Virus record (IMG/VR): IMGVR_UViG_3300023179_003795
Location: 1-64,000 of that record
Length of the DNA: 64,000 bases
DNA from: a virus
Lineage: Duplodnaviria > Heunggongvirae > Uroviricota > Caudoviricetes
Reading direction: 5' to 3' (one strand)
The notes under the pieces are model-generated. The model saw only the letters and a program-made list of their open reading frames with translations, had not been told where the DNA came from and did not search any database. Both the position numbers and the translations under genes were made by a program. How positions within the stretch are numbered: the stretch's first letter is position 1; the number at the start of each line of letters is the position of its first letter. Of this stretch, positions 15,364 through 38,082 are shown piece by piece.

Positions 15364-15385
15364 ATTATATAAATATTTATCTTTT

Positions 15386-17074: not shown

Positions 17075-17088
17075 ATTACAATAAATAG

Positions 17089-20072: not shown

Positions 20073-20085
20073 ACCTATAAATATA

Positions 20086-21042: not shown

Positions 21043-21676
21043 CCAAACCTTTCATTCTTCCCTTACATACTTGAACAGCAAAGCCATTTGCATAAGCACT
21101 AGGGTAAACTTTAAACTTTGATTTAGCAGCGGCTTTACCTCTAGCACATAATTTAGTTCCGGTTTTCTTTTTACCCTCAGATAAACTTTCATCCATCTCC
21201 ATATATTCTTTAAGTTTAATAAACTCTTCTTTAGTTAAACCTGTCCTTATTTTTTTTCTGATTGGTTGATCCAATGCTGTTGAGAATGCTCCTGATGACG
21301 CTGTTCCGGTTTCTTCTTTAATATTTTTCTTATCTCTAACATCCTTAATGTTATAATATAATGTATCCCACCAATCATCATCCTTCATATATTTATTAGC
21401 CATTTGAATATTGATTGAGGCATTTTCAATATAATTATCCACAGCTTTTTCAACGTCTGTATCAATATATTTTTCAGGTAATACTTCTTCAATTTCAATA
21501 GCCACATTCATAGGAGACATCATTCTAAAATCTATTGATTGACCTAAACCTTTATTATCTCTTTTATAGATTCCGTAAGTCATATCTTGACCACCAGAAT
21601 CTTCACCATATTCTTTAATCATTCTTTCAATTAAAGAAATTAATTCACTTTCTTTTAATGTTATTGTTTTTTTCAT
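21008..21676 (-). CDS. Hypothetical protein starting MKKTITLKESELISLIERMIKEYGED (leader-type N-terminus)
   Basis: 222 aa. The C-terminus is KVYPSAYANGFAVQVCKGRMKG ... CSGSYC. Paralogous in part to 20086..21042. Confidence 0.5.
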   Translation of the reverse strand: MKKTITLKESELISLIERMIKEYGEDSGGQDMTYGIYKRDNKGLGQSIDFRMMSPMNVAIEIEEVLPEKYIDTDVEKAVDNYIENASINIQMANKYMKDDDWWDTLYYNIKDVRDKKNIKEETGTASSGAFSTALDQPIRKKIRTGLTKEEFIKLKEYMEMDESLSEGKKKTGTKLCARGKAAAKSKFKVYPSAYANGFAVQVCKGRMKGLDGQKKCSGSYC

Positions 21677-22752
21677 ATAATTGTTTTTAATATTTTATGT
21701 ACAGATTCCTCTACACTATATTTAAGATTAATATTAGGGTTTGTTGATGTTGAATAATAATTATAACGATCCCTACTCTTTACTATATTTTTTTTAGTTT
21801 TGTTTGTCCTTTTTTCTTTATAAGTTCTTTCTAATTGTTTCATAACTTTTTCTCTTACTTCGTTAGGTATCCGATTATACACACTAGGACTTTTAGTTAT
21901 AAATTCATTTTTTGTTTTATAATCCATAGATTTAATATAATCTAATACTTGTTCAAATGTAGCCGTTTCAAGATTAAATCCATATTTATAATTATAATTC
22001 CTTTCTTTCTTTTCTAAGTGTTTCATAACTTTTTCTCTTACTTCGTTAGGTATCTGACTATACACATTTTTACTTTTACTTCTAAATTCATCTTTTGTTT
22101 TATAACCCATAGATTCAATATAATCTAATACTTGTTCAAATGTAGCCGTTTCAAGATTAAATCCATATTTATAATTTCCTTTATAAGTTCTTTCTTTCTT
22201 TTCTAAGTGTTTCATAACTTTCCCTCTAACTTCGTTAGACATCTTAGTATACACAGTAGGACTTTTAGTTGTAAATTCATTTTTTGTTTTATAACCCATA
22301 GATTCAATATATTCTAATACTTGTTCAAATGTGGCTGTTTTAGGATTAAATCCATATTTATTTGGGAATGTTTGAGTTAAAATATCATCAACATTTTTAG
22401 TTAAATTATATTTTTTAGATATCTTACGTGATAAATCATATAATCTCCGATTTTTTACCCTTAAATCTTCTCTACCTTTATATTTAACCAATTTTCCATT
22501 TTCATCTATATAACCATCCAATATTTCTTGTTTGATTTGTTCTGGTGTCATTTTATCATAAAACAATCTTTTAACATACCAAACTAAACCTTGCTTTCTA
22601 GCACTATCATATAATTGATTAAATTTAATTTCAAATTCATCAATATTATTAACTAATTTAACGGCTTGCTTAATTTCTCTCCACCATAAACTCTTAGCTC
22701 CTTCATTTAATAAAAGTGAATTAAATTGTTGTTCTGTTATTAAAATCTTCAT
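21673..22752 (-). CDS. Tandem-repeat protein (3 x about 47 aa repeats) with a shared 125-aa N-terminal domain (MKILITEQQFNSLLLNEGA...)
   Basis: 359 aa. Repeats are ...KYGFNLETATFEQVLDYIESMGYKTKDEF..S.SVY..IPNEVREKVMKHLE x3. The N-terminal about 125 aa are about 90% identical to those of 51886..53019. Confidence 0.65.
   Translation of the reverse strand: MKILITEQQFNSLLLNEGAKSLWWREIKQAVKLVNNIDEFEIKFNQLYDSARKQGLVWYVKRLFYDKMTPEQIKQEILDGYIDENGKLVKYKGREDLRVKNRRLYDLSRKISKKYNLTKNVDDILTQTFPNKYGFNPKTATFEQVLEYIESMGYKTKNEFTTKSPTVYTKMSNEVRGKVMKHLEKKERTYKGNYKYGFNLETATFEQVLDYIESMGYKTKDEFRSKSKNVYSQIPNEVREKVMKHLEKKERNYNYKYGFNLETATFEQVLDYIKSMDYKTKNEFITKSPSVYNRIPNEVREKVMKQLERTYKEKRTNKTKKNIVKSRDRYNYYSTSTNPNINLKYSVEESVHKILKTII
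22465..22752 (-). repeat. About 280-bp direct repeat, about 93% identical to 52745..53019 (shared N-terminal domain DNA)
   Basis: Nucleotide alignment by eye gives long identical runs (ttcatctatataaccatccaatatttcttgttt ... ataaaagtgaattaaattgttgttctgttat). Confidence 0.75.
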
Positions 22753-22754
22753 AC

Positions 22755-23003
22755 TTATTTACCTAAATTAGTTACCCAAAAGTTTCTTCTCATCCATAAT
22801 GTTTTATATAGAGATACCAACACTTCTTTTGATATATCAGTCATTATTTTTTCAGTATCTTTACCCTTTAACTCTTTCTTTAATAAATCAAGAACAGTTT
22901 TTTCCAAATCCTTATCAATTAAATCCTTTATTTGTGATTTAATCATCTTTTCAATTTGATTTTTTTCTGTCTTATTTAATTCTTCAAATAATATTTTTCT
23001 CAT
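22755..23003 (-). CDS. Hypothetical small helical protein
   Basis: 82 aa, K/E-rich. The start follows ctatttatacatatATG. Confidence 0.45.
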   Translation of the reverse strand: MRKILFEELNKTEKNQIEKMIKSQIKDLIDKDLEKTVLDLLKKELKGKDTEKIMTDISKEVLVSLYKTLWMRRNFWVTNLGK

Positions 23004-23017
23004 ATATGTATAAATAG

Positions 23018-23410
23018 TTATAGTTTATATGTTTTACTATCATTCCTTAATTCACTTACTTCGTAATCAAAAGACACTAATAATTTATTTTCTTCAGTTA
23101 TATCTATATCACCCCATATGTGGAATATACCATCAATTCGATCAGCAATCCCTTCAATTAATTTATAAACCGGAGTTTCAAACTCATATAATTCACGGTG
23201 ATTATTACCCCCATCAAAGACACCATGCATATACCAATTCCATTCGTCAGGAGTTGTACTCATATCAAATCGAACACTTGTTTCATTATCTTTTATATAT
23301 TGAAGAACAGGATTCATTCCAATTTCAGATAAATATTGTCTATCCCTTTCATCAATTCTCCTGGGGATAAATAACTTCTTTTTTTGATCTTCACTAATAA
23401 TAATTTTCAT
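23018..23410 (-). CDS. Hypothetical protein carrying the N-terminal leader (MKIIISEDQKKKLFIPRRIDERDRQ)
   Basis: 130 aa. The start is embedded in the reiterated terminator-promoter cassette; the first codons are near-identical at the DNA level to the start of 30520..31389. Confidence 0.6.
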   Translation of the reverse strand: MKIIISEDQKKKLFIPRRIDERDRQYLSEIGMNPVLQYIKDNETSVRFDMSTTPDEWNWYMHGVFDGGNNHRELYEFETPVYKLIEGIADRIDGIFHIWGDIDITEENKLLVSFDYEVSELRNDSKTYKL

Positions 23411-23467
23411 ATCTATATAAATACTTCAGAACATAAAAAAACCCCAATAAAGGGGTTTTAATTTTTT
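23411..23467 (-). promoter_or_regulatory. Terminator-promoter cassette (hairpin aaaacccc-aataaa-ggggtttt, then T-tract, then gtatttatatagatATG)
   Basis: About 68 nt identical to 31374..31442. Read on the minus strand it is a GC-centred hairpin, a U-tract, a TATTTATAT motif, then ATG 4 nt later. Confidence 0.55.
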
Positions 23468-24184
23468 TTATATTAACATTTTCAATCCATCCTTTTCACA
23501 TATATACCCATCCGTATTATTAAGTATCATTTTATTATCAAAGATATGGACATTATTTTCAACCACACAAATCATATAGTCAATATTATGATACAATTTA
23601 TTTATACCATTATATTTAATCTCATATGAATTATCATCATTTAATACGATTGATGAACAAGTTTTAATTTGAGCCTTGAATTCTTTACCATTCTTAATAT
23701 TCTTAATGGTAATGTCATAACCACCAATCATATCATTCAAATCACCTAATTTACCAACACTAATTACTTCATAACCACCTTTAGATTCGAAATGTTTTTT
23801 TAATTTGACTACAACTAAATCTTCTTTTTTACCACCTTTAGATGACGTGTATTGGATTTTATCAGTTATTTTAGGTAACATACCAATCCAATGCCATTTA
23901 TCACTTAATACGTAATCCATCATAGTTTCATACCCTTCTTTAGTTGATGGGTTGAAATTAATCTTAGTGAGGGTTTCATCGACTATTATACCATAAGCCA
24001 AAAAATTAGTATTGATATAATTTAATATACTTTCCTCCTCACATTTATTTGTTTTAAATATTCTTGGTTGTCTATACCCTCCCACTTCTTTTAATAGTTG
24101 TGGATGGTGAGCTTCAAATATCCTTATGTAGTCGTTTTTGAATATCTTAAAACCAATGGTTTCTTTTAATTCTTTCCAGTTCAT
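23468..24184 (-). CDS. Hypothetical protein
   Basis: The track ORF (to 24274) begins inside a palindromic terminator hairpin. The start at 24184 (MNWKELKETIG...) follows tgtataaatattaaatatATG (TATAAATA). Confidence 0.5.
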   Translation of the reverse strand: MNWKELKETIGFKIFKNDYIRIFEAHHPQLLKEVGGYRQPRIFKTNKCEEESILNYINTNFLAYGIIVDETLTKINFNPSTKEGYETMMDYVLSDKWHWIGMLPKITDKIQYTSSKGGKKEDLVVVKLKKHFESKGGYEVISVGKLGDLNDMIGGYDITIKNIKNGKEFKAQIKTCSSIVLNDDNSYEIKYNGINKLYHNIDYMICVVENNVHIFDNKMILNNTDGYICEKDGLKMLI

Positions 24185-24228
24185 ATATTTAATATTTATA
24201 CAAATATATAGTAATAATTTAATAAAAA

Positions 24229-24259
24229 CAAAAAAAGGGGTGAAAACCCCCTTTTTTTT
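24229..24259. terminator. Palindromic bidirectional terminator (aaaaaaagggg-tgaaaac-ccccttttttt)
   Basis: Perfect inverted repeat with A/T runs on both sides, lying between the stop of 24316..25539 and the start region of the next gene. Confidence 0.55.
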
Positions 24260-24315
24260 ACAATTTTTCACCAATATAACATTCAGGTGATAAACTTAAA
24301 CTATTACTATCCATA

Positions 24316-25539
24316 CTACTTATTCTTTAAATCTAAGGTTAAATCTCTTGCGGCTTTTGCTCCCATAAGTTCCATAAAATTCAAAGCCCCATTACCATTA
24401 CCACCACCTGATTGAATTTGTGGAACTACATTACCTTGATATTTACCGAAAGCGTCCGCCCAATATCTTTGAACTTCTTTATAAGCCGCTAACTTTTGTT
24501 CCAAAGCCCCATTCGCTTGAATTTCAGTTCGTTTAGCGTATGCTTGAGCGTCTGCCAATGTCTTAATCTTCTTGGCTTCTAATTCAGCGGCTTGAGCTTG
24601 AATCCTTTGTTGTTCCATATCTTGTTTAGCCACTTCAACCTTTGTTTCAGCCGCTACAACTTGTTTGGTTTGTTCTTGTTTTTGTTGGTATTCAATCTCA
24701 ACCAATCGTTGTTCACCTTTAGCCTTAGCAGTTAATTGTTGTTGTTGTGCGGTTAATAATTCTTGTTTAGATACTGAAGCCTTTGTTGATGCGTCAATTT
24801 TCTTACCTAACATATCATCCACTCTTTTTTCATAATCCACATCGGTAATCTGAGCATCTGCCACCTGAATACCATATTCTTTGATTGATGAAAACTTACG
24901 TTTAGAATTACCTAATTTATCTGTAACTTGATTAGTTTCATATACCCTTTTAGTTTCTTTCGCTAAACTATCATATACGACTCTATCACTTGTTTTAAGA
25001 ATGAATACACCATTTTTTAACTGATCTAAATAATCCTGAGCCATCTGTGCTCTACCACCAGAATAATGAGCCTCTGAATTCATTAACTGAGCTGATGATT
25101 GGAGACATTCTTTAGTATAAGGAGCCAATCGTTTAGATACCAATGATTGTGGTGTTCGGTGTGTATTGTGCATTATAATCATTTCTTTTTCATCCATAGG
25201 TAGGATATATTGTGTGATACCACTTACAAGTGCTGTGGTAGCATCTCCACCAAAACGAATTAAGATTTTACCAATTTCAATAGTCCCATCATTTAAATCC
25301 ATATCAGGTTGATCGGCTTGATAACTTACTGAAATCTGATTAGGCCATTCTTTATGCTTGGATAAAAATCCTGCGTAATATACACCAGGTGTGAATTGAA
25401 CGAATTGTTTACCATCCATCTGTTCCACTACGGTTCGTTCACCCGCATGGTTATAAGAAAATGGATTGAAAGATAGAAGAGCGATAGTAGCGATAACTCC
25501 AACTACTAATTTTACGATTGTTGATTTTTGGATTTCCAT
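24316..25539 (-). CDS. SPFH/band-7 (prohibitin/HflKC/stomatin-like) membrane protein
   Basis: 407 aa with an N-terminal TM (IVKLVVGVIATIALL), an SPFH-like core and a long Q/A/E/K-rich coiled coil (QAQAAELEAKKIKTLADAQAYAKRTEIQANG) typical of HflK/C. Confidence 0.75.
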   Translation of the reverse strand: MEIQKSTIVKLVVGVIATIALLSFNPFSYNHAGERTVVEQMDGKQFVQFTPGVYYAGFLSKHKEWPNQISVSYQADQPDMDLNDGTIEIGKILIRFGGDATTALVSGITQYILPMDEKEMIIMHNTHRTPQSLVSKRLAPYTKECLQSSAQLMNSEAHYSGGRAQMAQDYLDQLKNGVFILKTSDRVVYDSLAKETKRVYETNQVTDKLGNSKRKFSSIKEYGIQVADAQITDVDYEKRVDDMLGKKIDASTKASVSKQELLTAQQQQLTAKAKGEQRLVEIEYQQKQEQTKQVVAAETKVEVAKQDMEQQRIQAQAAELEAKKIKTLADAQAYAKRTEIQANGALEQKLAAYKEVQRYWADAFGKYQGNVVPQIQSGGGNGNGALNFMELMGAKAARDLTLDLKNK

Positions 25540-25596
25540 ATTTATTTACTTTTAATTTTTTTACAAAAATAATACTTTTTTTTAAACTGCCAAATT

Positions 25597-25842
25597 TTAT
25601 TTTTTAATTTCAGTTTTTTTACGAATCTCTTTTACTTTTTTTTCGGTTTCATTAACCTTTTCCACTACTTCTTGATAATCACCAGTCTTTTCTTCAACTT
25701 CCTTTTCAAGGTCATCTAACTCTTTTGGGTTATCACTTTCTTTACTTTTTTTATTTTTACTAAGGTAATTGACTAACCAATCACCACCAAAATAACTTAT
25801 AACCAACACCGCGATTATAATTACAAACATTATTACTCTCAT
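25597..25842 (-). CDS. Small membrane protein with an N-terminal TM and a charged coiled-coil tail
   Basis: 81 aa (MRVIMFVIIIAVLVISYFGG...). Its role is unknown. Confidence 0.4.
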   Translation of the reverse strand: MRVIMFVIIIAVLVISYFGGDWLVNYLSKNKKSKESDNPKELDDLEKEVEEKTGDYQEVVEKVNETEKKVKEIRKKTEIKK

Positions 25843-25868
25843 ACTTCAAATATATTATTTTTTTTATA

Positions 25869-26036
25869 CTAATCAAATTTTTTTAATACTTTTTTTACAA
25901 TTTCGTGAATTTTAAATATTTCACCATTCGATGAATTTTTCGTTAATAACTCAATACTTTCCAATGCCGATTTATATTCGTCATGCCTCATTTGAAAATC
26001 AATAGTTTCTTCAAAAGAATCTTTTTTATTTTTCAT
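25869..26036 (-). CDS. Small hypothetical ORF (55 aa), not in the track
   Basis: Manual translation gives MKNKKDSFEETIDFQMRHDEYKSALESIELLTKNSSNGEIFKIHEIVKKVLKKFD, filling an otherwise uncoded gap. Below the track's length threshold. Confidence 0.3.
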   Translation of the reverse strand: MKNKKDSFEETIDFQMRHDEYKSALESIELLTKNSSNGEIFKIHEIVKKVLKKFD

Positions 26037-26037
26037 A

Positions 26038-26499
26038 TTATATACTTCTTAATTTAGAATACATCCCAATTTTTTTTTCAGTATTTTCACTCGGAACAAT
26101 AGTAATTTCATTCCAAAATAACTCACCCTTCTCTAATTCAGACACAAAATTATCTTTCAATTTGTCTATGTTATAGATAGATGTATTTTTTAATGACGTT
26201 ATAAACTTATTTTTAATGTCCTCCAATAAAAAATCATTTTTTTCAGTTTTTATACTACAAATTACAAAAAACTCCATCCCAACCCCTTCTTCCGTTACAC
26301 CACTAATATTAAAATTAAATTTATTATTTTCATTATTTATAATAGCCTCTATCTTAGATTTATATGATATATGTTTATTATAAAATGTATATGCTAAACC
26401 TGACGATATTAAACACACAACCAATAATAATGTAATTATGTCATTTTTCATGCTACAAAAATTATCCTTCATCATCATCCCAAATAACAGGAACACCAT
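26038..26499 (-). CDS. Hypothetical protein with an N-terminal signal/anchor
   Basis: 153 aa with the hydrophobic stretch ITLLLVVCLISSGLAYTF near the N-terminus. Confidence 0.45.
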   Translation of the reverse strand: MVFLLFGMMMKDNFCSMKNDIITLLLVVCLISSGLAYTFYNKHISYKSKIEAIINNENNKFNFNISGVTEEGVGMEFFVICSIKTEKNDFLLEDIKNKFITSLKNTSIYNIDKLKDNFVSELEKGELFWNEITIVPSENTEKKIGMYSKLRSI

Positions 26500-26788
26500 T
26501 ACTCATTATTTTATCATCCATAACTAAATGTTCGTAGAATATAACACTAATTACTTCGTTATCGTATTCAACCAATATCATCATTATTTCAGATATTTGA
26601 TTTAAAACAGTCCTTACTTTACACATAAAAGGTTCTGATACAATAAGACATATTTTAGCGTCAGTATTATATGTTCCGGCTAAATATTTTTGTTCGTTAT
26701 TGTATGGATATTGTGTTGATGTTGTTAGATTTACCGAATATGAATTATCGTTAGGTATGTAATATTTTCCAATTAAACTTTCTTTCAT
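26462..26788 (-). CDS. Hypothetical protein
   Basis: 108 aa ORF overlapping the next gene by 38 nt; an internal start is possible. Confidence 0.4.
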   Translation of the reverse strand: MKESLIGKYYIPNDNSYSVNLTTSTQYPYNNEQKYLAGTYNTDAKICLIVSEPFMCKVRTVLNQISEIMMILVEYDNEVISVIFYEHLVMDDKIMSNGVPVIWDDDEG

Positions 26789-26964
26789 TATTTAGCCCTT
26801 TCCAAAATAAAACAAAACTTACCATAGTTAGTTGTAGTTGAATAGTTTTGACCACCCCCTCCATTCGTTACGTGTTGAGCCGTCACAGAAACTACTTTCC
26901 ATCCTTTATCTAAAAGGTTTTGAACGTCATATTGACTATCCGTTATTATTACTTTTTGTTCCAT
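26788..26964 (-). CDS. Small hypothetical ORF (58 aa), not in the track
   Basis: Manual translation gives MEQKVIITDSQYDVQNLLDKGWKVVSVTAQHVTNGGGGQNYSTTTNYGKFCFILERAK, filling the gap between track ORFs. Confidence 0.3.
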   Translation of the reverse strand: MEQKVIITDSQYDVQNLLDKGWKVVSVTAQHVTNGGGGQNYSTTTNYGKFCFILERAK

Positions 26965-26970
26965 ATTATT

Positions 26971-27186
26971 TTAATATATTTTTTTACCACATCTAAGTGG
27001 TGTTCCATCTGAATTAAATACTTGCATAGCCGCTCTGTGTTTTATTTTATACACAAACCCATTTTCACACTCAATTGAGTAATCCCAATGAGCACCAATT
27101 TCATATGGATCTTTCTTAGATTCACAATGTTGACATCCTATTGATATTAATAAAAATATCAAGAAAATAATTAAAATTTCTTTCAT
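26971..27186 (-). CDS. Small secreted Cys-rich protein
   Basis: 71 aa with the signal peptide MKEILIIFLIFLLISIGC followed by a domain with 5 Cys. Confidence 0.4.
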   Translation of the reverse strand: MKEILIIFLIFLLISIGCQHCESKKDPYEIGAHWDYSIECENGFVYKIKHRAAMQVFNSDGTPLRCGKKIY

Positions 27187-27203
27187 ACTACAAAGATATT
27201 AAA

Positions 27204-27461
27204 TTAAACCTTAGAAACCAAATTTTCTTTTCTTTTTTTATACCACACAGTTCCCGCAGTTCCAATAAACGAACCAATAACCGCAGGTATTATAAGATAA
27301 TGATTGGTTGAATATGATAACACAACCAAAGCACCTATTAAATAAATCACCACAGCCCAAAATCCTGATTGGAATGGTTTTCTTTCTTCAACTTTAATCA
27401 AATATAAAGTCCAAGCAATATCAACAATAATTGTCGCAATAAAAATTAAAATATATTCCAT
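27204..27461 (-). CDS. Small membrane protein with 2-3 TM helices (holin-like topology)
   Basis: 85 aa of hydrophobic helices ending in the basic tail YKKRKENLVSKV. No lysin is adjacent, so holin status is uncertain. Confidence 0.35.
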   Translation of the reverse strand: MEYILIFIATIIVDIAWTLYLIKVEERKPFQSGFWAVVIYLIGALVVLSYSTNHYLIIPAVIGSFIGTAGTVWYKKRKENLVSKV

Positions 27462-27517
27462 AGTACAAATATACTACTTTTTTATATATATCCAAAAAAA
27501 TTTTTTACTTTATGTTT

Positions 27518-28693
27518 TTATCTAACCATATCAATACCACCCTTTTCAATCCTATCCAAAGTGTAAATCTCCAACTCAGTTCTTAACCTATCTTCACTTT
27601 TTATTTTTTCATACCTGTGTTGTGATTTGTTTTTCCACCATTCAATCATATTTGACAAATGGTATCTATCCCAATTTTCTTTTTTCTCTAAAGGTATACT
27701 CCCACCACTTTTAATATATTCAAAAACATTTTCATAACCATATGTGGAGTAATAATACCTCTTTTTGGTTTTAGATTTCATATTGGTATTTGTGAATTTA
27801 TTAAATGTAACATATAATTCATTATCATAAACTTTTAAATGGTTTTTAATGATGGAAATCATTTTGTTAAATTCTCTGAGTTTAGGACCCGAACCTTTTG
27901 GATCTACCAATGAACCACCCCACTCCGATTTACCAAAATGTTGTCTTAAAAAATCCCTTATTTCCATATATATGTTTTCATTTGGAAATAAAAATAAATC
28001 AGAATCAGTCATACTACCATACCTCATGAAAGGTCTTAGACCATCATATTGACTAACACCCTTTATATCACCATACAATGACGTTGTTTCCATGAATAAA
28101 GTTTCTATTTTATCCCCATATTTTTCATTTAAAATATTTCTAACTTCGTGTGATGAACATATTAACGCTAATAACTTTCCACCCAAATAATTATAACCAA
28201 ACGGTTGTACTGGTACAATGATAGATCCATTTATCATATATCTATTCACCTCATTAGCTGTTAGTCTAAAATCATCAAAAAGGATATTTCTCGGTTTTAT
28301 TGATATAACCGGTGATGATAATCTAATAAATCCAACATATTTATTGGTTGTTGTTTCTTTAACACCCAACATAATTTGTCTACCAATCTGAGATTCCAAA
28401 GGTAGTGAAATTATAATTTGAGTCATAGGGTTAAATAATTTACCATCAATAACCTCAAGTTTAAAATTCATATCTTTTGGTTCTATTGTGTAATCATCAA
28501 ACATTAAATCAACCCATTTAGTGTAGTCAATATCAACAATCTTTTCTTTCTTTCTTTCCAAAAAATAATCCTGTATACCAGTCAATTTTTCGTAAAATGA
28601 TGTTAATTTATTCGCCAAACCAATTGTTTCTTCTTGAGTTAATTTAATATTGTTATTTCCTATTGTTTCTGTATGTTCCATAATGAAAAACAT
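27518..28693 (-). CDS. Hypothetical protein
   Basis: 391 aa. I recognise no domain; the block VPVQPFGYNYLGGKLLALICSSHEV is unassigned. Confidence 0.5.
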   Translation of the reverse strand: MFFIMEHTETIGNNNIKLTQEETIGLANKLTSFYEKLTGIQDYFLERKKEKIVDIDYTKWVDLMFDDYTIEPKDMNFKLEVIDGKLFNPMTQIIISLPLESQIGRQIMLGVKETTTNKYVGFIRLSSPVISIKPRNILFDDFRLTANEVNRYMINGSIIVPVQPFGYNYLGGKLLALICSSHEVRNILNEKYGDKIETLFMETTSLYGDIKGVSQYDGLRPFMRYGSMTDSDLFLFPNENIYMEIRDFLRQHFGKSEWGGSLVDPKGSGPKLREFNKMISIIKNHLKVYDNELYVTFNKFTNTNMKSKTKKRYYYSTYGYENVFEYIKSGGSIPLEKKENWDRYHLSNMIEWWKNKSQHRYEKIKSEDRLRTELEIYTLDRIEKGGIDMVR

Positions 28694-28719
28694 AACAAAA
28701 AATAACTTTTTTGTAAATG

Positions 28720-29646
28720 TTATTTAGCTGATACGGTTTTTTCATTCATACAAAAATCTTTTCTATATTTCAATAAACTTTTTTCTTTCATCTTACTTTC
28801 AATGGTAATCCACACATCTTTACCACAAGAATCAAATGGTTCGTATAACCAATCAGCGTGGGTTTTAATTGTTTTTGTCGGATCTTCGTGTAGTTTCCTA
28901 CTGCTTGAATGATGAACTTCAGGTATTATATTACCCCAAGTCCCATAAGCCAAATTAAATGTTTCCTGATAATCAAACCCACCATTATTACAATAGAAAT
29001 GTAAACTATCAAATACAATTGGTATTCCTATTTCCTGATGTAATTTATATAAATCCTGTGTCATATAGTTATTCTTACCATCATCATTCTCAACGGTTAA
29101 TCTTTTTCTTAACCCTGATGATAATAATTTAAAGTTATCAGCAAATCTTAAAGTCGTTCCTTCTTTATCGTTATATACACCCCCAACGTGAATATTGATA
29201 TTATAAAATGGGGTTTCATCCAATTCCATTAAATCTATCAATTTAGAATGTTGTTCCAACTCATATATGGTTTTTCTAACCACATCTTCATTGGGTGAAG
29301 CCAAACAATTAAAAGGACCTGGATGTAATGAAACCTTATGTCCGTATGATTTAACAAGAGTTCCAGCACCTTTCATAAGGTTTTTAATTGTATTGTAATT
29401 GGGTAAATCCTCAATCTTATACTCTGAGAACCAGGGAAACATATCTGAACTCATTCGGTAGTTCTTAATATTATTCTTTTCATTCCATTTAATAATTTCA
29501 ATCATATCTTTTATGTTGAGAATTATAAGTTCAGAAACATAGGTAAGTCCCTTTGTTTTGAAGGTTTTATTCACCATTCCACGATTGACTGTAATATTAT
29601 TATCAGCCAATGTCATATTTATACAAGCATATCCTAGTTTATCCAT
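28720..29646 (-). CDS. uvdE: UV-damage endonuclease UvdE (TIM-barrel)
   Basis: 308 aa colinear with Bacillus UvdE: GYACINMTL, YRMSSDMFPW, SLHPGPF, INIHVGGVY, TVENDD, FDSLHFY, THADW, ITIESKMKEKSLL. Confidence 0.85.
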   Translation of the reverse strand: MDKLGYACINMTLADNNITVNRGMVNKTFKTKGLTYVSELIILNIKDMIEIIKWNEKNNIKNYRMSSDMFPWFSEYKIEDLPNYNTIKNLMKGAGTLVKSYGHKVSLHPGPFNCLASPNEDVVRKTIYELEQHSKLIDLMELDETPFYNINIHVGGVYNDKEGTTLRFADNFKLLSSGLRKRLTVENDDGKNNYMTQDLYKLHQEIGIPIVFDSLHFYCNNGGFDYQETFNLAYGTWGNIIPEVHHSSSRKLHEDPTKTIKTHADWLYEPFDSCGKDVWITIESKMKEKSLLKYRKDFCMNEKTVSAK

Positions 29647-29918
29647 TTTGTATCGTCAAATTTTTGTGTTAATAAATCATAATGTTCAAAGAAACTTTCC
29701 AATGGCATTGATTTATCACCATTATCAATAATAGATTTAAATCTAATAATTAAAAAGTTATCACCCTTTTCTTTAGCCCAGTCTTTAGTTGCTTCACTAT
29801 GAGTAATACTATTCATACAAAAGGCGTAATTTAATATACCATAGACAATTACCTTATCACCTTTATCTTTGGATTTAAAGATAAGTCCTATTATTTCTTT
29901 CGATACAATATTTTTCAT
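29634..29918 (-). CDS. Hypothetical protein
   Basis: 94 aa ORF overlapping uvdE by 13 nt. Confidence 0.4.
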   Translation of the reverse strand: MKNIVSKEIIGLIFKSKDKGDKVIVYGILNYAFCMNSITHSEATKDWAKEKGDNFLIIRFKSIIDNGDKSMPLESFFEHYDLLTQKFDDTKWIN

Positions 29919-29939
29919 ACGACAAAACTATAATATAAT

Positions 29940-29970
29940 TTTGACAATACCAAATATTTTTTTATCTTTG
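29940..29970 (+). promoter_or_regulatory. Bacteroidetes-type sigma-A promoter (TTTG-N19-TATCTTTG)
   Basis: TTTG at 29940..29943, a 19-nt spacer, then TAtcTTTG at 29963..29970, with the ATG of 29975..30301 4 nt downstream. This would give a nearly leaderless transcript. Confidence 0.4.
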
Positions 29971-29974
29971 TGAA

Positions 29975-30301
29975 ATGAGAACGTTAAAAAAACAATATTT
30001 CATATCAGATATTGATATGTGGTCTTCCGTACGTGGTGAAAATCTACATAAAATAAGATATAATGGAGTAAAATGTTCTTTTGATGGGTATGATTTTTTG
30101 AATAATCAAGGTAAGATAATATTTTCTTATCATAGTTGTTACCATAGTACCCCTATTCAAAGGATACGTATTATAAAAAAAGGTATAAGGTTTAAATTAC
30201 TATCTATTGTTGAAAACGATGGTATAAAAAATTATTTAGGTAAAAATATTAAAACCGGAGAATTAATAACATTTAGTTGGGAACAAATAACTTTTATATA
30301 A
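29975..30301 (+). CDS. Hypothetical protein
   Basis: 108 aa plus-strand ORF in a short plus-strand island. Confidence 0.45.
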   Translation: MRTLKKQYFISDIDMWSSVRGENLHKIRYNGVKCSFDGYDFLNNQGKIIFSYHSCYHSTPIQRIRIIKKGIRFKLLSIVENDGIKNYLGKNIKTGELITFSWEQITFI

Positions 30302-30304
30302 AAA

Positions 30305-30523
30305 ATGAAAAATCAATATAAACAAAGACAGAGACAGATTGAAAAATCAATTAAAGGTGATCATATTCAAAATCAAGACTATTTCTTAGATTTAATGATT
30401 TTACAAGAAAAACGTAAGAAAAAAGAAAGTAAACCCAGATTGGTTTTAAAAAATGGTCAATTAAACATTAAAAGATTGTTTAATAATGGGGTTCCTTTTA
30501 GTTGGGAAGATAACCCCCTTTAA
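30305..30523 (+). CDS. Hypothetical basic small protein
   Basis: 72 aa, starting 4 nt after the previous stop. Confidence 0.4.
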   Translation: MKNQYKQRQRQIEKSIKGDHIQNQDYFLDLMILQEKRKKKESKPRLVLKNGQLNIKRLFNNGVPFSWEDNPL

Positions 30524-31389
30524 TGGGAGTTGTAGGTTTCTAATAATTCCCTTATTTCAATTAATTGTTCTAATTTAAGTTCTTCGTATTTAACCGGAAA
30601 AGATGTTTCTTCTGTATTGTATTTATACCCACCATATACTACAACTTCAACATGATCAGAATAAAATTGTTCAATTAAGGCAACTTCATTTTCTTCATCT
30701 TCAGGACTATACCCATAAACAATTGAATTACCACCCAATTCACCCATACTTATAAAACCTTCTTCTTCTTCAATTATTTCTTTAATCTCAGAAATATATT
30801 TTTGTTTTAGTTCTTCAGCCTCAATCTTTCGTTGATCAATTCTTCTAGGGATAAATAATTTACCTTTTTTAGATTGTTCCGATTCAGTTAGTGACATCAT
30901 TTTAATTAATTCATCATCTCTATATAAACCTTTAAACACTAAATTACCACGTATATTATATTCTTCCCATATACCATTTTTTAAATCATCTTTAAATGAA
31001 CCCCTTTCATATAATTTCCCATTTCCATAATATTCTTCCCATACACCATCTCTTTTACCATTAATATAACTTCCTTTATATTTTAATTGTCCATCATAAT
31101 GATAATATTCCCATATACCTTCTTTTTTATCATCTTTAAATAAACCTTTAGACCATAATTGTCCATTTTTATGATACCTTTCCCATATACCAATTTTCTT
31201 ACCATCATGTGTATATTGATTAATATGTTTCCCATCTACGATGGGTTGTTCCTTATTCCATTGGATAAATCGGGAATTCTCTCCTGATAATCTTCTAGGA
31301 ATAAATAATTTACCTTTTTTAGATTGTTCTGATTCAGTTATTGGTATGAATAATTTCTTTTTTTGTTCTTCAGTTATAATAATTTTCAT
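30520..31389 (-). CDS. MORN-repeat protein with N-terminal leader and an internal second leader copy
   Basis: 289 aa starting MKIIITEEQKKKLFIPITESEQSKKGKLFIPRRLSGENSRFIQWNKEQPIVDG, followed by 5-6 MORN repeats, a second LTESEQSKKGKLFIPRRIDQRK and an acidic C-terminal domain. About 90 aa are identical to part of 3298..5610. Confidence 0.75.
   Translation of the reverse strand: MKIIITEEQKKKLFIPITESEQSKKGKLFIPRRLSGENSRFIQWNKEQPIVDGKHINQYTHDGKKIGIWERYHKNGQLWSKGLFKDDKKEGIWEYYHYDGQLKYKGSYINGKRDGVWEEYYGNGKLYERGSFKDDLKNGIWEEYNIRGNLVFKGLYRDDELIKMMSLTESEQSKKGKLFIPRRIDQRKIEAEELKQKYISEIKEIIEEEEGFISMGELGGNSIVYGYSPEDEENEVALIEQFYSDHVEVVVYGGYKYNTEETSFPVKYEELKLEQLIEIRELLETYNSH
31083..31345 (-). repeat. Inverted copy of 4377..4639
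   Basis: See the paired feature. Confidence 0.8.
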
Positions 31390-31442
31390 ATCTATATAAA
31401 TACTTCAGAACATAAAAAAACCCCAATAAAGGGGTTTTAATT
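31390..31442 (-). promoter_or_regulatory. Terminator-promoter cassette, second copy
   Basis: Identical over about 68 nt to 23395..23462, including the hairpin aaaacccc-aataaa-ggggtttt and gtatttatatagatATG. Confidence 0.55.
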
Positions 31443-32387
31443 CTATTTAGATTTTTTTAACATCATTTTCTTATATCTTTGTCCTTTAACAGCCAAAGTG
31501 TGTGTATCTTTTATGTTAGTATCACTATATTTTTTAAATAATTGAATGGTTTTATTAAACATTCCAATCATTAATTTAATATCAGCCAAAGCGTTATGCC
31601 ATTCATCAATGTTTATTTTAAAGGCTGGTACCACAACACCCATAGAAGTTGAATAATACTTCTTTTCTTTCATTCTTGGAGTTCCATCAGGATTTAACTT
31701 AGGTTGTTTTGTTTTCCAATCCAAATCAGGTTCCATTACATTCCCATCAGGTCCTTTAACAGGTGTTAATAACTTACCTAAAAATTCACCAGCCAATTGA
31801 TTTCCACCTTTTTTTAATGACTTTAACATTGGTAAAAAGAATAATTTTAATATGTTATTTGTATCTAATACTGAAACATTTAATGGTTTTAATCCATATA
31901 GTTTCATTCGTGTATTAACCATTTTCATATCAAATGGTGCGTTATGAGCAATTAATATTGGTTTATCATATGAATTAACAAAGTTTGAAAAGTTTTCCAA
32001 TAAACTTTTTTCATCATAATAACTTCTTGTTCCGGGTGTTTCACCAAACCTTGTCATTTTAAGAACATCTCTTGGATCTTGAAACCTCTCACTAACCTTA
32101 ATCTTAGACCTCCAATTTTCATATTCAGAAGTTCCAGGTTTCATTCTTTTTTCAATATTGGGTAATAACTTAACTTTTTCGTAAAACTTGTCTAATACGT
32201 TAAAATTATTAAACTCACAAACCAAAGCCGCTATTTCTGTTAATTGTTCTGTTCTTGGTGAAAACCCTGTTGTTTCCGTATCAAAAAAGATAAGTGTATT
32301 ATCATTTAACCCTTCAATATAAACCAATACATCTTCAATTGACATACCGAAAAATCTACCTTTTTTTAATGATTTTTTCATAACCAC
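31443..32387 (-). CDS. DEDDh 3'-5' exonuclease (DnaQ/epsilon-like)
   Basis: 314 aa with Exo I IFFDTETTG, Exo II IAHNAPFDMKM and Exo III HNALADIKLM. Confidence 0.8.
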   Translation of the reverse strand: MVMKKSLKKGRFFGMSIEDVLVYIEGLNDNTLIFFDTETTGFSPRTEQLTEIAALVCEFNNFNVLDKFYEKVKLLPNIEKRMKPGTSEYENWRSKIKVSERFQDPRDVLKMTRFGETPGTRSYYDEKSLLENFSNFVNSYDKPILIAHNAPFDMKMVNTRMKLYGLKPLNVSVLDTNNILKLFFLPMLKSLKKGGNQLAGEFLGKLLTPVKGPDGNVMEPDLDWKTKQPKLNPDGTPRMKEKKYYSTSMGVVVPAFKINIDEWHNALADIKLMIGMFNKTIQLFKKYSDTNIKDTHTLAVKGQRYKKMMLKKSK

Positions 32388-32430
32388 AAAGATAATAATA
32401 ATTTTTTAATTACCAAACATTTTATTTTTT

Positions 32431-32691
32431 TTAATATTTGGTTATTTTTAATGTTAACTTACCATTACCTTTTATTGCTCTATGCCATTGATGTTTTGGT
32501 ATTTCTATCTTACCTTCCATTTTAATTGGTAATTCATTATCTCTTTGAAACATCCAATCTGTTTCACCAATTACCTCAACAATCCTATCTTCATTATCCC
32601 GATGCCAAGAAAGTTCTTGACTATCTAACTCAGCATCAAACTCTCTTATAACAACATTTGTATCAATTTCTTTATCTAAATATGGTTTCAT
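32431..32691 (-). CDS. Hypothetical protein
   Basis: 86 aa ORF. Confidence 0.4.
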   Translation of the reverse strand: MKPYLDKEIDTNVVIREFDAELDSQELSWHRDNEDRIVEVIGETDWMFQRDNELPIKMEGKIEIPKHQWHRAIKGNGKLTLKITKY

Positions 32692-32694
32692 AAC

Positions 32695-33216
32695 TTATTT
32701 GTATCCAATATAAACTTGTGGATAGATATATCCTTCAGGGTATTTATTTAATAATTGTATTGTTCTATGCCATCCTTCCAATAATTCATATTTTTCACCT
32801 TTCTTTAAAAGAATTATAGGTTCTGTTGGCATATTACCTTGTATTTTTTTTGCTTGGTATTGATGTCTTTTTAAATCATTTGGAACATTAAAAGGATTTT
32901 TTAAACCACCTTCACGTTGTTTCATATATTGAATTGTTGACGCACCAAAAATATCCAATGAAATAGGGAAATCCTTTTTAAGTTTCCATTTATAATCACC
33001 GTATTCTTTAACCAAAATCTTCATTTCTTCATAGGTGTATGGTCTTTCATTCTTCTTAGCAAATATATCCATTATAATATAATTGGGCATATTTGGAAAT
33101 GTTTCCCTAAACCAATTCAATTGATCTAATTTCCAACCTTGTTTTGTTCTTGGATAATCTTTAAACTCCAAATCATCAACAACCTCTTTTAATATTTTTC
33201 TTATTAAATGTTTCAT
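32695..33216 (-). CDS. Hypothetical protein (weak ParB/Srx-like [LI]-x-[DE]-G-x-H-R motif: YELLEGWHRT)
   Basis: 173 aa. The single motif is suggestive only. Confidence 0.4.
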   Translation of the reverse strand: MKHLIRKILKEVVDDLEFKDYPRTKQGWKLDQLNWFRETFPNMPNYIIMDIFAKKNERPYTYEEMKILVKEYGDYKWKLKKDFPISLDIFGASTIQYMKQREGGLKNPFNVPNDLKRHQYQAKKIQGNMPTEPIILLKKGEKYELLEGWHRTIQLLNKYPEGYIYPQVYIGYK

Positions 33217-33235
33217 ACGTTATTATTTTTTTATT

Positions 33236-33904: not shown

Positions 33905-33906
33905 AT

Positions 33907-35085: not shown

Positions 35086-35204
35086 TTTATACTATAAATA
35101 CTAGTAATCTCGATATTTTTCATTACCTAACCTATATCTCATTATTTCTCTTTTAATATTTTTCTTATTAAATGTTTCATAATATATTGATTTACAAGTA
35201 GTTA

Positions 35205-38048: not shown

Positions 38049-38082
38049 ATTTGTATGTTTTTTTTATTTATATATAAATAGT

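What the first reader, a model, noticed from the sequence alone, without database searches (positions are those of the whole stretch)
23391..31442. Reiterated terminator-promoter-leader cassette and a TATTTATA-N(2-9)-ATG motif at many gene starts
An about 68-nt block is identical at 23395..23462 and 31374..31442. It consists of the hairpin aaaacccc-aataaa-ggggtttt, a T-tract, gtatttatatagat, ATG and the first leader codons. The same core precedes 5631 as a literal gtatttatatagatATG. It recurs in degenerate form before at least 12 other starts. These include 7495 tatatttatatatATG, 15363 aaatatttatataATG, 20072 atatatttataggtATG, 23003 ctatttatacatatATG, 40290 catatttatacattatATG, 45659 tctatttatatattaatatATG, 53019 gtatttataaaaatATG, 51816 actatttataataaaa..ATG, 63375 actatttatatggtATG and 3298 atatttataaaaaaATG. 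At 24184 the motif reads TATAAATA, the T4 late-promoter sequence. TATTTATA is the reverse complement of the T4 late -10 element TATAAATA. The 2-9 nt spacing to the ATG leaves no room for a Shine-Dalgarno sequence, which implies either leaderless transcripts or that the motif is a translation-initiation element. Two candidate readers are encoded in this window, the phage sigma factor at 49109..49891 and phage bS21 at 43674..43859, which sits at the mRNA-entry and anti-SD region of the 30S subunit.
Basis: partly seen in the sequence, partly recalled or inferred. Interest (0 to 1): 0.7.

Follow-up and report, generated by a model that had tools for sequence, protein, structure and literature searches.

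The report
Phage late-promoter box abutting start codons
A nine-base box, [A/C]TATTTATA, sits just upstream of the late (virion, lysis, packaging) genes of this uncultured phage and its many relatives and is most likely a phage-specific promoter element; in this phage it, and the host-type early promoters too, lie so close to the ATG that many messages would have no leader.

Summary
TATTTATA, in the sense orientation, lies within 40 nt upstream of 17 of 82 gene starts. Dinucleotide shuffles of the same upstream 40-mers give 1.3 on average (maximum 6 in 2000). The reverse-complement word occurs upstream of one start only. The duplicated block is real: 67 nt are identical.

The box is best read as a promoter element, not a ribosome signal.
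- It is conserved upstream of orthologous late genes in hundreds of relatives.
- Its distance to the ATG varies from 3 to about 40 nt among them.
- An A is enriched at the fifth base after the box.
- There is no -33/-35 partner.

These points place the box at -12 to -5, the same geometry as the host (Bacteroidota) -7 element TAnnTTTG.

A second class, not in the finding, is the canonical host promoter TTTG-N18-20-TAHHTTTG. It has 14 full matches against 2.6 expected. Counting two more without a full match, 10 of 16 end 4-5 nt before the ATG.

Both classes therefore predict leaderless mRNAs, which are rare in the hosts (about 5%).

Neither proposed reader is general. Flavobacterium phage immuto and Microcystis phage Mel-JY01 keep the box and have no detectable sigma; immuto also lacks bS21. 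No gp55 homologue was found.

The parts
23397..23463 (-). Copy 1 of the 67-nt identical block: terminator hairpin, T-tract, TATTTATA, ATG and the first 5 codons of gene 23018..23410
31376..31442 (-). Copy 2 of the 67-nt identical block, upstream of gene 30520..31389
23438..23459 (-). Terminator-like hairpin AAAACCCC-TTTATT-GGGGTTTT followed by a T-tract
   Evidence: MFE -13.8 kcal/mol, z = -2.05
31417..31438 (-). Identical terminator-like hairpin in copy 2
23416..23423 (-). TATTTATA box, 5 nt before ATG 23410
31395..31402 (-). TATTTATA box, 5 nt before ATG 31389
3285..3292 (+). TATTTATA box, 5 nt before ATG 3298 (770-aa protein with a lysin domain)
5618..5625 (+). TATTTATA box, 5 nt before ATG 5631
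7484..7491 (+). TATTTATA box, 3 nt before ATG 7495
15368..15375 (-). TATTTATA box, 4 nt before ATG 15363 (gp20-type portal); conserved in relatives
17080..17087 (-). One-mismatch box TATTTATT, 5 nt before ATG 17074 (large terminase); conserved in L002, L003 and L011
17575..17582 (-). TATTTATA box, 9 nt before ATG 17565; lies inside the 3' end of the upstream gene
20076..20083 (-). TATTTATA box, 3 nt before ATG 20072
23009..23016 (-). TATTTATA box, 5 nt before ATG 23003
35093..35100 (-). TATTTATA box, 7 nt before ATG 35085
38073..38080 (-). TATTTATA box, 24 nt before ATG 38048
40297..40304 (-). TATTTATA box, 6 nt before ATG 40290
45071..45078 (-). TATTTATA box, 3 nt before ATG 45067; heads the gap-free operon 45067..41889 that contains bS21
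45669..45676 (-). TATTTATA box, 9 nt before ATG 45659 (amidase-type endolysin); preceded by a different hairpin and T-tract
51831..51838 (-). TATTTATA box, 14 nt before ATG 51816
53025..53032 (-). TATTTATA box, 5 nt before ATG 53019
63363..63370 (+). TATTTATA box, 4 nt before ATG 63375; the ORF is open to the end of the window
12378..12408 (-). Host-type promoter TTTG-N19-TAcaTTTG ending 4 nt before ATG 12373; the N4 spacing is kept in L003 and L011 while the spacer bases change
12656..12663 (-). -7 box TAtaTTTG ending 4 nt before ATG 12651, directly after a terminator hairpin
25847..25877 (-). Host-type promoter ending 4 nt before ATG 25842
27191..27222 (-). Host-type promoter ending 4 nt before ATG 27186
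27466..27496 (-). Host-type promoter ending 4 nt before ATG 27461
29919..29974 (.). 56-nt divergent intergenic region holding two overlapping host-type promoters, each ending 4 nt before its ATG (29918 on the - strand, 29975 on the + strand)
32387..32417 (-). Host-type promoter ending 5 nt before ATG 32381; this corrects the listed GTG start at 32387
59709..59739 (-). Host-type promoter ending 4 nt before ATG 59704
62240..62271 (-). Host-type promoter ending 4 nt before ATG 62235
49925..49956 (-). Host-type promoter of the sigma gene, with a 33-nt spacer to the ATG (leadered)
49109..49891 (-). Phage sigma-70-family factor (regions 1.2, 2 and 4); a candidate reader but not a general one
43674..43859 (-). 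Phage bS21, encoded inside an operon driven by a TATTTATA box

Best explanation
[A/C]TATTTATA is the core recognition element of a phage-lineage-specific late promoter. It occupies positions -12 to -5, the same place as the host -7 box TAnnTTTG. It has no -33/-35 partner. Transcription starts about 5 nt (range 4-6) after the box, usually at an A.

The host RNA polymerase is probably redirected to the box by a phage-encoded specificity factor that has not been identified. In this phage's clade the sigma-70-family protein at 49109..49891 is one candidate.

In this phage the box lies 3-9 nt from the ATG of most late genes or operons. The late mRNAs would therefore start on, or 1-4 nt before, the AUG. 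Ten of sixteen host-type early promoters are built the same way, with TAnnTTTG, 4-5 nt, then ATG.

Hairpin and T-tract terminators placed directly upstream insulate these compact units. The 67-nt identical block is one such unit together with the first codons of two paralogous genes, copied by duplication or gene conversion.

What is shown: enrichment, orientation, conservation, geometry, and the classes of genes served. What is inferred: promoter function, the transcription start site, leaderless translation, and a phage-encoded reader.
For: Enrichment is far above what AT-rich composition gives, and it is strictly sense-oriented.

The genes served are late genes. In the window they are the portal, the terminase (variant box), an amidase endolysin, a virion lysin-domain protein and the bS21 operon. 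In cultured phage immuto they are TerL, portal, sheath, tail completion protein, hub and tape measure. In Mel-JY01 they are TerL, portal and tail tube.

Conservation with a free distance to the ATG:
- The box is kept upstream of portal orthologues at 52-59% amino-acid identity, but mostly 25-30 nt from the ATG.
- In 737 kb around portal genes, 201 of 275 sense sites precede an ORF start within 60 nt, against 20 of 275 antisense sites.
- In 1.49 Mb around sigma genes the figures are 170 of 477 against 73 of 477.

Geometry:
- A logo of 191 non-redundant sites shows no upstream element and A at 76% at the fifth base after the box.
- The box-to-ATG distance has a sharp peak at 4 nt in relatives (21 and 27 cases). 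The host -7 box peaks at exactly the same distance (28 cases).
- In F. johnsoniae the -7 box spans -12 to -5, with 4-5 nt to the transcription start (PMC6847099).

Only about 30 nt separate the terminator T-tract from the ATG in the cassette, and the box is the only conserved element there.

Close relatives keep the box and keep it near the ATG while the spacer changes by small indels, from 3 to 7 nt.

The box is kept in phages of two host phyla whose own promoters differ, which argues for a phage-encoded reader.

A -10-like signal about 10 nt before start codons is an accepted in-silico marker of leaderless genes (PMC3160421).
Against: No transcript 5' ends were available, so promoter function and leaderless starts remain inferences.

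No reader was identified. Sigma-70 and gp55 profile searches are negative in immuto and Mel-JY01.

Spacings of 3 nt and of 6-9 nt require a flexible start site or very short leaders.

Leaderless mRNAs are rare in flavobacteria: 5.5% in F. psychrophilum (PMC9723704). Efficient translation of so many leaderless messages in such a host is unproven.

The relatives' loci were sampled around only two marker genes and are phylogenetically related, so the site counts are not independent events.
Confidence: 0.7

Rival explanations
1. The phage sigma-70-family factor (49109..49891) is the protein that reads TATTTATA. It would be made early from a host-type promoter, then replace host sigma-A and switch RNA polymerase to late genes. 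This is a more specific version of the best explanation.
For: The gene is a true sigma with regions 1.2, 2 and 4. It is transcribed from a host-type promoter with a 33-nt spacer to the ATG, so it would be made before the late genes. It is conserved across the jumbo clade, on contigs up to about 312 kb. The box sits in the register of a -10/-7 element. Sigma cascades are standard in phages such as SPO1 (own knowledge).
Against: Immuto and Mel-JY01 carry the same box upstream of the same late genes but have no detectable sigma-70-family protein. tblastn and an HMM built from 120 homologues give a best E of 0.2-0.6. The factor also keeps region 4, which normally reads a -35-type element, yet the box has no upstream partner; this point is an inference.
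Confidence: 0.25
2. The system is a T4-type late system. A gp55-like minimal sigma, too diverged to detect or encoded outside the window, reads an 8-bp box without a -35 element. The box is a variant of TATAAATA changed at positions 4 and 5.
For: The portal, capsid and terminase are T4-like: 2547 phage records match the portal, most of them T4-like phages. Mel-JY01 has a T4-type replication module with PolB, clamp loader and gp41-type helicase. The box is 8 bp, AT-only and lacks a -35 partner, as T4 late promoters do. In the same orientation TATTTATA differs from TATAAATA only at positions 4 and 5.
Against: An HMM of T4 gp55 plus 16 diverse homologues finds nothing in the window, the immuto genome, 98% of Mel-JY01 or 80 relatives' loci; the best E is 0.4. 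Immuto uses a family A polymerase and has no annotated clamp or clamp loader. The T4 orientation of the word is essentially absent upstream of genes.
Confidence: 0.12
3. The box is a translation-initiation element in the mRNA. It would be read by the ribosome, possibly one carrying phage bS21, and would replace a Shine-Dalgarno sequence.
For: In this window the box lies 3-9 nt from the ATG of many genes. The phage encodes bS21, which sits at the anti-SD pocket in Bacteroidia (PMC9976891 abstract). Bacteroidota lack SD sequences (PMC6847099).
Against: In relatives the distance to the ATG is mostly 13-40 nt. In Mel-JY01 a GGAG-type SD lies between the box and the ATG. Immuto has the box but no bS21. 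The bS21 gene is itself downstream of a box. The box sits directly after terminators, where a new promoter is needed. Its peak distance matches that of a known promoter element.
Confidence: 0.04
4. The box is the binding site of a phage DNA-binding regulator (activator or repressor), or the promoter of a phage-encoded RNA polymerase, and not a sigma-type -10/-7 element.
For: No reader is known. A 77-aa zinc-ribbon protein is shared by immuto, Mel-JY01 and 37 loci of the jumbo clade. Small zinc-finger late activators such as P2 Ogr exist (own knowledge).
Against: No RNA polymerase gene is annotated in the complete immuto genome or in the fetched 98% of Mel-JY01. The box has the same register relative to the ATG and the inferred start site as the host -7 element. 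No separate core promoter is visible between terminator and ATG. The zinc-ribbon protein gave no informative family match and was not found in this window.
Confidence: 0.1
5. The motif is a by-product of AT-rich intergenic composition.
For: The upstream 40-mers are 82% A+T.
Against: The count is 17 against 1.3 expected in dinucleotide shuffles of the same sequences, maximum 6 of 2000. The reverse complement, which has the same composition, occurs upstream of one start. The motif is conserved in relatives at 35% G+C.
Confidence: 0.01

Closest known systems
T4 late promoter TATAAATA read by gp55 (with gp33 and the gp45 clamp)
   Same: Both are 8-bp, A/T-only boxes in the -10 region with no -35 element. 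Both serve virion and lysis genes of phages with T4-type portal, capsid and terminase. Six of the eight positions are identical in the same orientation.
   Different: Positions 4 and 5 are TT, not AA. The T4 word is almost never found upstream of genes here. No gp55 homologue is detectable. The inferred register is -12 to -5. T4 late mRNAs have leaders with SD sequences, whereas here the box abuts the ATG.
Bacteroidota sigma-A promoter, -33 TTTG / -7 TAnnTTTG (PMC6847099, PMC9723704)
   Same: The position relative to the inferred start is the same, -12 to -5. The bases T-12, A-11, T-8 and T-6 are shared. The peak spacing of 4 nt to the ATG in the leaderless arrangement is the same. The window's early promoters are canonical members of this class.
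   Different: The late box has A where the host element has the nearly invariant T-7 and G-5. It has no -33 TTTG. It is also kept in a phage of a cyanobacterium.
Leaderless genes marked by a -10-like signal about 10 nt before the start codon (Actinobacteria, Deinococcus-Thermus; PMC3160421)
   Same: A promoter element lies at a fixed short distance from an ATG start, and the in-silico inference is the same.
   Different: Here the case is a phage of a phylum in which leaderless mRNAs are rare (5.5%, PMC9723704). Two different promoter classes, host-type early and phage-type late, show the arrangement. Only part of the clade does so.
Phage sigma cascades (for example SPO1 gp28 and gp33/34; own knowledge)
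   Same: An early-expressed phage sigma-70-family gene is present together with a distinct late promoter class.
   Different: The sigma factor is absent from two relatives that keep the box, so a sigma cascade cannot be the general mechanism.
The 'bS21 phages' of freshwater Bacteroidetes (PMC9723584)
   Same: The gene neighbourhood is of the same kind: bS21 among structural genes, and genomes up to about 330 kb. That paper reports late-stage co-expression of bS21 and structural genes, which fits bS21 lying in a box-driven operon.
   Different: That paper does not mention promoters, motifs, sigma factors or leaders.

Membership tests
T4-type (gp55-dependent) late promoter | TATAAATA on the non-template strand upstream of late genes | tested here: not met
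   The sense-strand word is TATTTATA at 17 starts. TATAAATA occurs at one start (24184), inside the leader of a sigma-A-type promoter. T4 strand assignment is taken from PMC7892883.
T4-type (gp55-dependent) late promoter | No -35 element | tested here: met
   The logo of 191 non-redundant sites shows no conserved upstream position beyond a weak T-rich patch.
T4-type (gp55-dependent) late promoter | The phage encodes a gp55 homologue | tested here: not met
   The gp55 HMM gives a best E of 0.4 in the window, the immuto genome (756 nt not fetched), 98% of Mel-JY01 and 80 loci. PHROGs scans of about 50 window proteins show none. The window covers only part of its genome.
T4-type (gp55-dependent) late promoter | Activation by a sliding clamp and gp33, coupled to replication | not testable with these tools
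   This needs biochemistry. Mel-JY01 has clamp-loader genes; none is annotated in immuto.
Bacteroidota sigma-A promoter (tested on the TATTTATA box) | -7 element with nearly invariant T-12, A-11, T-8, T-7, T-6 and G-5 | tested here: not met
   The box has A at the positions of T-7 and G-5 in every exact instance. Consensus positions are from PMC6847099.
Bacteroidota sigma-A promoter (tested on the TATTTATA box) | -33 TTTG about 19 nt upstream | tested here: not met
Bacteroidota sigma-A promoter (tested on the second, early class) | TTTG-N18-20-TAHHTTTG oriented towards a gene | tested here: met
   There are 14 matches against 2.56 +/- 1.67 expected, and all lie upstream of and point towards gene starts.
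Leaderless mRNA | Transcription starts at, or within a few nt of, the A of the AUG | not testable with these tools
   No transcript data were available. The spacing predicts it: the host -7 box ends 4-5 nt before the ATG at 10 of 16 early promoters, and the late box ends 3-5 nt before the ATG at 12 genes. The rule of 4-5 nt from box to start site is from PMC6847099.
Leaderless mRNA | The start codon is AUG | tested here: met
   All starts with a box within 9 nt are ATG. The one listed GTG (32387) is better read as ATG 32381, 5 nt after the box.
Ribosome-binding or translation element | A constrained distance to the start codon, kept in relatives | tested here: not met
   Distances range from 3 to about 40 nt upstream of orthologous genes.
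Intrinsic terminator | G+C-rich stem-loop followed by a T-run | tested here: met
   Sites at 23438..23459, 31417..31438 and 24230..24258. There are 10 terminator-like sites against 4.4 expected in 20000..39999. The fold has MFE -13.8 kcal/mol. Function was not tested.
Sigma-70 family (gene 49109..49891) | Regions 2 and 4 | tested here: met
   Pfam Sigma70_r2 at 3e-19, r4 at 4e-15 and r1_2 at 4e-5. The best solved relatives are primary sigma factors. No NCBIfam equivalog cut-off is reached.
Ribosomal protein bS21 (gene 43674..43859) | Ribosomal_S21 domain | tested here: met
   PF01165 at 2e-12, 46.9 bits against a cut-off of 27.

The most novel reading that the evidence does not exclude
A large, globally distributed lineage of phages with T4-type heads shares one late promoter, [A/C]TATTTATA. 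The lineage includes immuto-like phages, Mel-JY01-like phages and the 200-330 kb 'bS21 phages', and it infects at least Bacteroidota and, if the recorded host of Mel-JY01 is right, Cyanobacteria. The promoter would be read through a still unknown phage-encoded factor that is neither a recognisable sigma-70 protein nor gp55 and that works with RNA polymerases of different phyla. In part of the lineage both early and late promoters have moved onto the start codons, so the phage runs a largely leaderless translation programme in hosts that rarely use one. Phage bS21, made late, may help bias ribosomes towards such messages.
Probability: 0.3. Interest if true: 0.8.

Novelty: new variant of a known kind. 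Interest (0 to 1): 0.6.

Why it matters
- Annotation. The box gives a simple, testable marker for late genes and operon starts in a very large group of uncultured aquatic phages, many of them over 200 kb. It also corrects start codons, for example at 5631, 24184 and 32381.
- An unidentified late-transcription factor. The box is kept in phages with and without a sigma gene and across two host phyla.
- A translation question. Can Bacteroidota ribosomes, which ignore Shine-Dalgarno sequences, translate leaderless messages on a large scale? Does phage bS21 play any part? Two cultured relatives, immuto and Mel-JY01, make these questions experimentally accessible.

Tried and rejected
- Megablast of 12 kb of the window against GenBank phages: no match.
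- E. coli-type sigma-70 promoter scan: 145 sites against 144.7 expected, so no signal.
- gp55 search: T4 gp55 gave 120 homologues, from which an HMM of 17 diverse sequences was built. It hit nothing in the window, immuto, Mel-JY01 or the relatives' loci.
- Sigma HMM against immuto and Mel-JY01: no hit.
- Bacterial relatives of the phage sigma factor: the closest are 41-47% identical and come from Ignavibacteria, Calditrichota, Latescibacterota and Bacteroidetes MAGs. The factor is therefore not a recent copy of a flavobacterial sigma-A, and its specificity could not be read from sequence.
- Proteins shared by immuto and Mel-JY01 as candidate readers: a 77-aa zinc-ribbon protein and two proteins of 150-190 aa gave no informative Pfam or PHROGs match. 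A 196-aa W-rich protein at 45714..46304 is shared only with immuto.
- A third promoter class: word enrichment in upstream regions lacking both boxes returned only one-mismatch variants of the late box, TATTTAT[AT].
- Rfam and tRNA scans of the window: nothing.
- Literature: no paper was found that describes this box, or leaderless transcripts, in phages of Bacteroidota.
- The idea that the 67-nt block is a mobile cassette was dropped. The two genes share an N-terminal module (MKIII[ST]E[DE]QKKKLFIP) that recurs in several large paralogous proteins, so the block is a local duplication or gene conversion.

Full report
**The window.** It is 28% G+C and most genes lie on the minus strand. No GenBank phage is close at the DNA level.

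Gene content shows part of a large tailed phage:
- gp20-type portal (13534..15363)
- large terminase (15386..17074)
- PhoH (17558..18244)
- an amidase endolysin (45084..45659)
- a 770-aa protein with a lysin domain (3298..5610)
- RNA ligases, an SbcC-like protein and a ClpB-like ATPase
- a sigma-70-family protein (49109..49891) and ribosomal protein bS21 (43674..43859)

IMG/VR holds at least 588 portal relatives, on contigs up to 321 kb. The closest cultured relatives are Microcystis phage Mel-JY01 (portal 40% identical) and Flavobacterium phage vB_FspM_immuto (36%).

**The observation.** The two copies of the block share an exact run of 67 nt, 23397..23463 and 31376..31442. Identity is 92% over 111 nt. 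Read on the coding strand, the block is a terminator-like hairpin (AAAACCCC-TTTATT-GGGGTTTT) with a T-tract, then 11 nt, TATTTATA, 5 nt, the ATG and the first codons.

The two proteins are alike only in an N-terminal module, MKIII[ST]E[DE]QKKKLFIP. This module recurs inside several large repeat proteins of the window. The block is therefore a local duplication or gene conversion between paralogues, not a separate mobile unit.

The motif claim is strongly confirmed:
- In sense orientation, 17 of 38 TATTTATA sites lie within 30 nt of a same-strand start, 14 of them at 3-9 nt. One of 38 does so in the opposite orientation.
- It is the most enriched 8-mer upstream of starts: 15 against 0.44 expected, p = 2e-18.
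- Dinucleotide shuffles of the same 82% A+T upstream 40-mers give 1.30 +/- 1.12, with a maximum of 6 in 2000, against 17 observed.

**A second class the finding did not mention.** Many other starts are preceded by TTTG-N18-20-TAHHTTTG, the published -33/-7 promoter of the Bacteroidota primary sigma factor. There are 14 full matches against 2.6 expected, and all point at genes. Counting two more that lack a full match (29918, whose box reads TAgtTTTG, and 12651, which has no -33 TTTG), 10 of 16 end exactly 4 nt, or once 5 nt, before an ATG. The pattern TAHHTTTG-N4-start occurs 8 times against 0.08 in shuffles.

In F. johnsoniae the -7 box spans T-12 to G-5, with 4-5 nt between the box and the transcription start, and 87% of leaders exceed 10 nt (PMC6847099). 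In F. psychrophilum only 5.5% of mRNAs are leaderless (PMC9723704). The window's early promoters are thus placed to start transcription on the A of the ATG.

Close relatives keep the 4-nt spacing while the spacer bases change. One 56-nt intergenic region, 29919..29974, holds two overlapping divergent promoters of this kind. These promoters serve small unknown ORFs, the sigma gene, the ClpB-like gene and nuclease-type genes. That fits an early class and a Bacteroidota host.

**What the TATTTATA box is.** Four lines of evidence point to a promoter element and not a ribosome signal.

1. *Conservation with a free distance to the ATG.* Upstream of portal orthologues at 52-59% identity the string aaCTATTTATAtt is conserved, mostly 25-30 nt from the ATG.
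   - In 737 kb around portal genes, 201 of 275 sense sites precede an ORF start within 60 nt, against 20 of 275 antisense sites.
   - In 1.49 Mb around sigma genes the figures are 170 and 73 of 477.
   - In immuto the box precedes TerL, portal, sheath, tail completion protein, hub and tape measure at roughly 15-30 nt.
   - In Mel-JY01 it precedes TerL, portal and tail tube at 23-36 nt, with GGAG-type Shine-Dalgarno sequences in between.
2. *Geometry.* A logo of 191 non-redundant sites gives [A/C]TATTTATA with no -33/-35 partner and A at 76% at the fifth base after the box. Where the box abuts a start codon in relatives, the distance peaks sharply at 4 nt. This is the same distance as for the host -7 box. 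Both facts place the box at -12 to -5.
3. *Context.* In the cassette only about 30 nt separate the terminator T-tract from the ATG, and the box is the only conserved element there. At 45659 an unrelated hairpin and T-tract is followed by the box in the same way.
4. *The genes served are late genes.* The bS21 gene lies in a gap-free operon (45067 to 41889) headed by a box. This agrees with the reported late-stage expression of phage bS21 (PMC9723584).

**Leaderless messages.** In this window the box ends 3-5 nt before the ATG at 12 genes and 6-9 nt before it at 4 more. With a start about 5 nt after the box, these late mRNAs would be leaderless or would carry 1-4 nt. Close relatives show spacer indels from 3 to 7 nt upstream of the portal, and a 15-nt deletion that brings a leadered box to 3 nt. 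The arrangement is therefore evolving within the clade.

For the portal the start codon is secure. Distant orthologues align from residue 1 and begin with the same ATG GCA. A -10-like signal about 10 nt before start codons is the accepted in-silico mark of leaderless genes (PMC3160421). No transcript data were available, so this step remains an inference.

**Who reads the box.** But it is always TATTTATA on the non-template strand, whereas T4 has TATAAATA on that strand (PMC7892883). In the same orientation the two differ at positions 4 and 5.
- A gp55 HMM finds nothing in the window, the immuto genome, 98% of Mel-JY01 or 80 relatives' loci.
- The window's sigma factor resembles primary sigma factors, retains region 4, and is conserved in the jumbo clade.
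- Neither tblastn nor a sigma HMM finds any sigma-70-family protein in immuto or Mel-JY01.
- bS21 is absent from immuto and present in Mel-JY01.

All three lineages use the box, and they infect hosts of two phyla with very different housekeeping promoters. The simplest reading is a phage-encoded factor not yet recognised. The sigma factor remains a candidate for this clade only.

A 77-aa zinc-ribbon protein is shared by immuto, Mel-JY01 and 37 jumbo-clade loci. It was noted, could not be characterised, and was not found in this window.

**Comparison and novelty.** The box works like a T4-type late promoter: a single AT-only box, no -35 element, and late genes as targets. It fails the sequence test and the gp55 test for membership. 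It sits in the register of the host -7 element but lacks that element's invariant T-7 and G-5 and its -33 partner.

Searches of the literature found no description of this box, nor of leaderless transcription, in phages of Bacteroidota. The paper on bS21 phages does not mention promoters. I rate the finding a new variant of a known kind.

Two points are of real interest. One is an unidentified reader conserved across a very large phage lineage. The other is the probable large-scale use of leaderless messages, from both early and late promoters, in a host group where they are rare.

**Limits.**
- All functional statements rest on sequence statistics and comparison.
- The relatives are phylogenetically related and were sampled around two marker genes.
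- The window is only part of its genome.
- Negative HMM searches cannot exclude very diverged factors.

Noticed in passing
window 29919..29974: A 56-nt divergent intergenic region contains two complete, overlapping host-type promoters (TTTG-N19/20-TAnnTTTG). Each ends 4 nt before its ATG (29918 on the - strand, 29975 on the + strand), so neither side has room for a leader.
   Followed up: partly
window 41889..45078: bS21 (43674..43859) is the fourth gene of a gap-free five-gene operon headed by a TATTTATA box at 45071..45078.
   Followed up: partly
window 24184..24258: The ORF listed as 23468..24274 (TTG start) spans a terminator hairpin (24230..24258) and a host-type promoter (24201..24232). 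The real start is probably ATG 24184. Similar corrections apply at 5631 (not TTG 5613) and 32381 (not GTG 32387).
   Followed up: partly
window 3298..5610, 8499..9451, 23018..23410, 30520..31389, 38083..40290: A family of paralogous proteins shares a 'SEQSKKGKLFIPRR' module followed by 72-nt (24-residue, MORN-like GxWxxYY) repeats. There are 13 repeat copies in 3298..5610 alone.
   Followed up: no
window 51743..52630, 21809..22361, 22359..22658 and 52626..52925: A 147-nt unit is repeated five times in tandem, four of the copies inside gene 51886..53019. A 183-nt unit is repeated three times inside gene 21673..22752. A 300-nt segment is 91% identical between these two genes.
   Followed up: no
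window 27518..28693: A phage gene matches the Druantia protein DruA family (PF14236, E = 6e-13). It lies next to a UvdE UV-endonuclease gene (28720..29646).
   Followed up: no
window 56497..62721: A cluster looks like an RNA-repair set: two RNA ligases (56497..57783, 59740..60795), a polynucleotide-kinase-like ATPase (62272..62721), an HD phosphohydrolase (61029..61640) and a metallophosphoesterase (58519..59199). A DNA methyltransferase (57783..58610) and an Eco47II-like endonuclease (61672..62235) are interleaved.
   Followed up: no
window 45714..46304: A tryptophan-rich 196-aa protein has no Pfam, PHROGs or NCBIfam match. It is 47% identical to a hypothetical protein of Flavobacterium phage immuto (23399..24016 of MW353176) and has no other match among GenBank phages.
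   Followed up: partly
L082 43062..43295 (immuto); Mel-JY01 PP395634 77524..77769 (L247 41794..42039); 37 loci among L169..L237, 5-9 kb upstream of the sigma gene: A 77-aa zinc-ribbon protein (CxxC...CxxC) is conserved in all three lineages that use the TATTTATA box. In Mel-JY01 it lies between the clamp-loader genes. It is a speculative candidate for a late transcription factor and was not found in the window itself.
   Followed up: partly
window 17080..17087, 13516..13523, 3253..3260; relatives' loci L001-L080 and L166-L245: One-mismatch variants of the box occur in the same orientation upstream of gene starts: TATTTATT before TerL (5 nt from the ATG) and before 13494 (21 nt), and TATATATA before 3247 (5 nt). 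TATTTAT[AT] words are the most enriched in relatives' upstream regions that lack the exact 8-mer, so the regulon is larger than exact matches show.
   Followed up: partly
L246 21749..21976 (Mel-JY01): A phage recorded as infecting Microcystis carries bS21 between the prohead protease and capsid genes, as in the Bacteroidetes 'bS21 phages'. Its leaders carry GGAG-type Shine-Dalgarno sequences, unlike those of immuto and this window.
   Followed up: partly
window 46674..48680: A 668-aa ClpB/ClpA-like double AAA+ ATPase is encoded by the phage and transcribed from a host-type promoter lying 35 nt upstream of its ATG.
   Followed up: no
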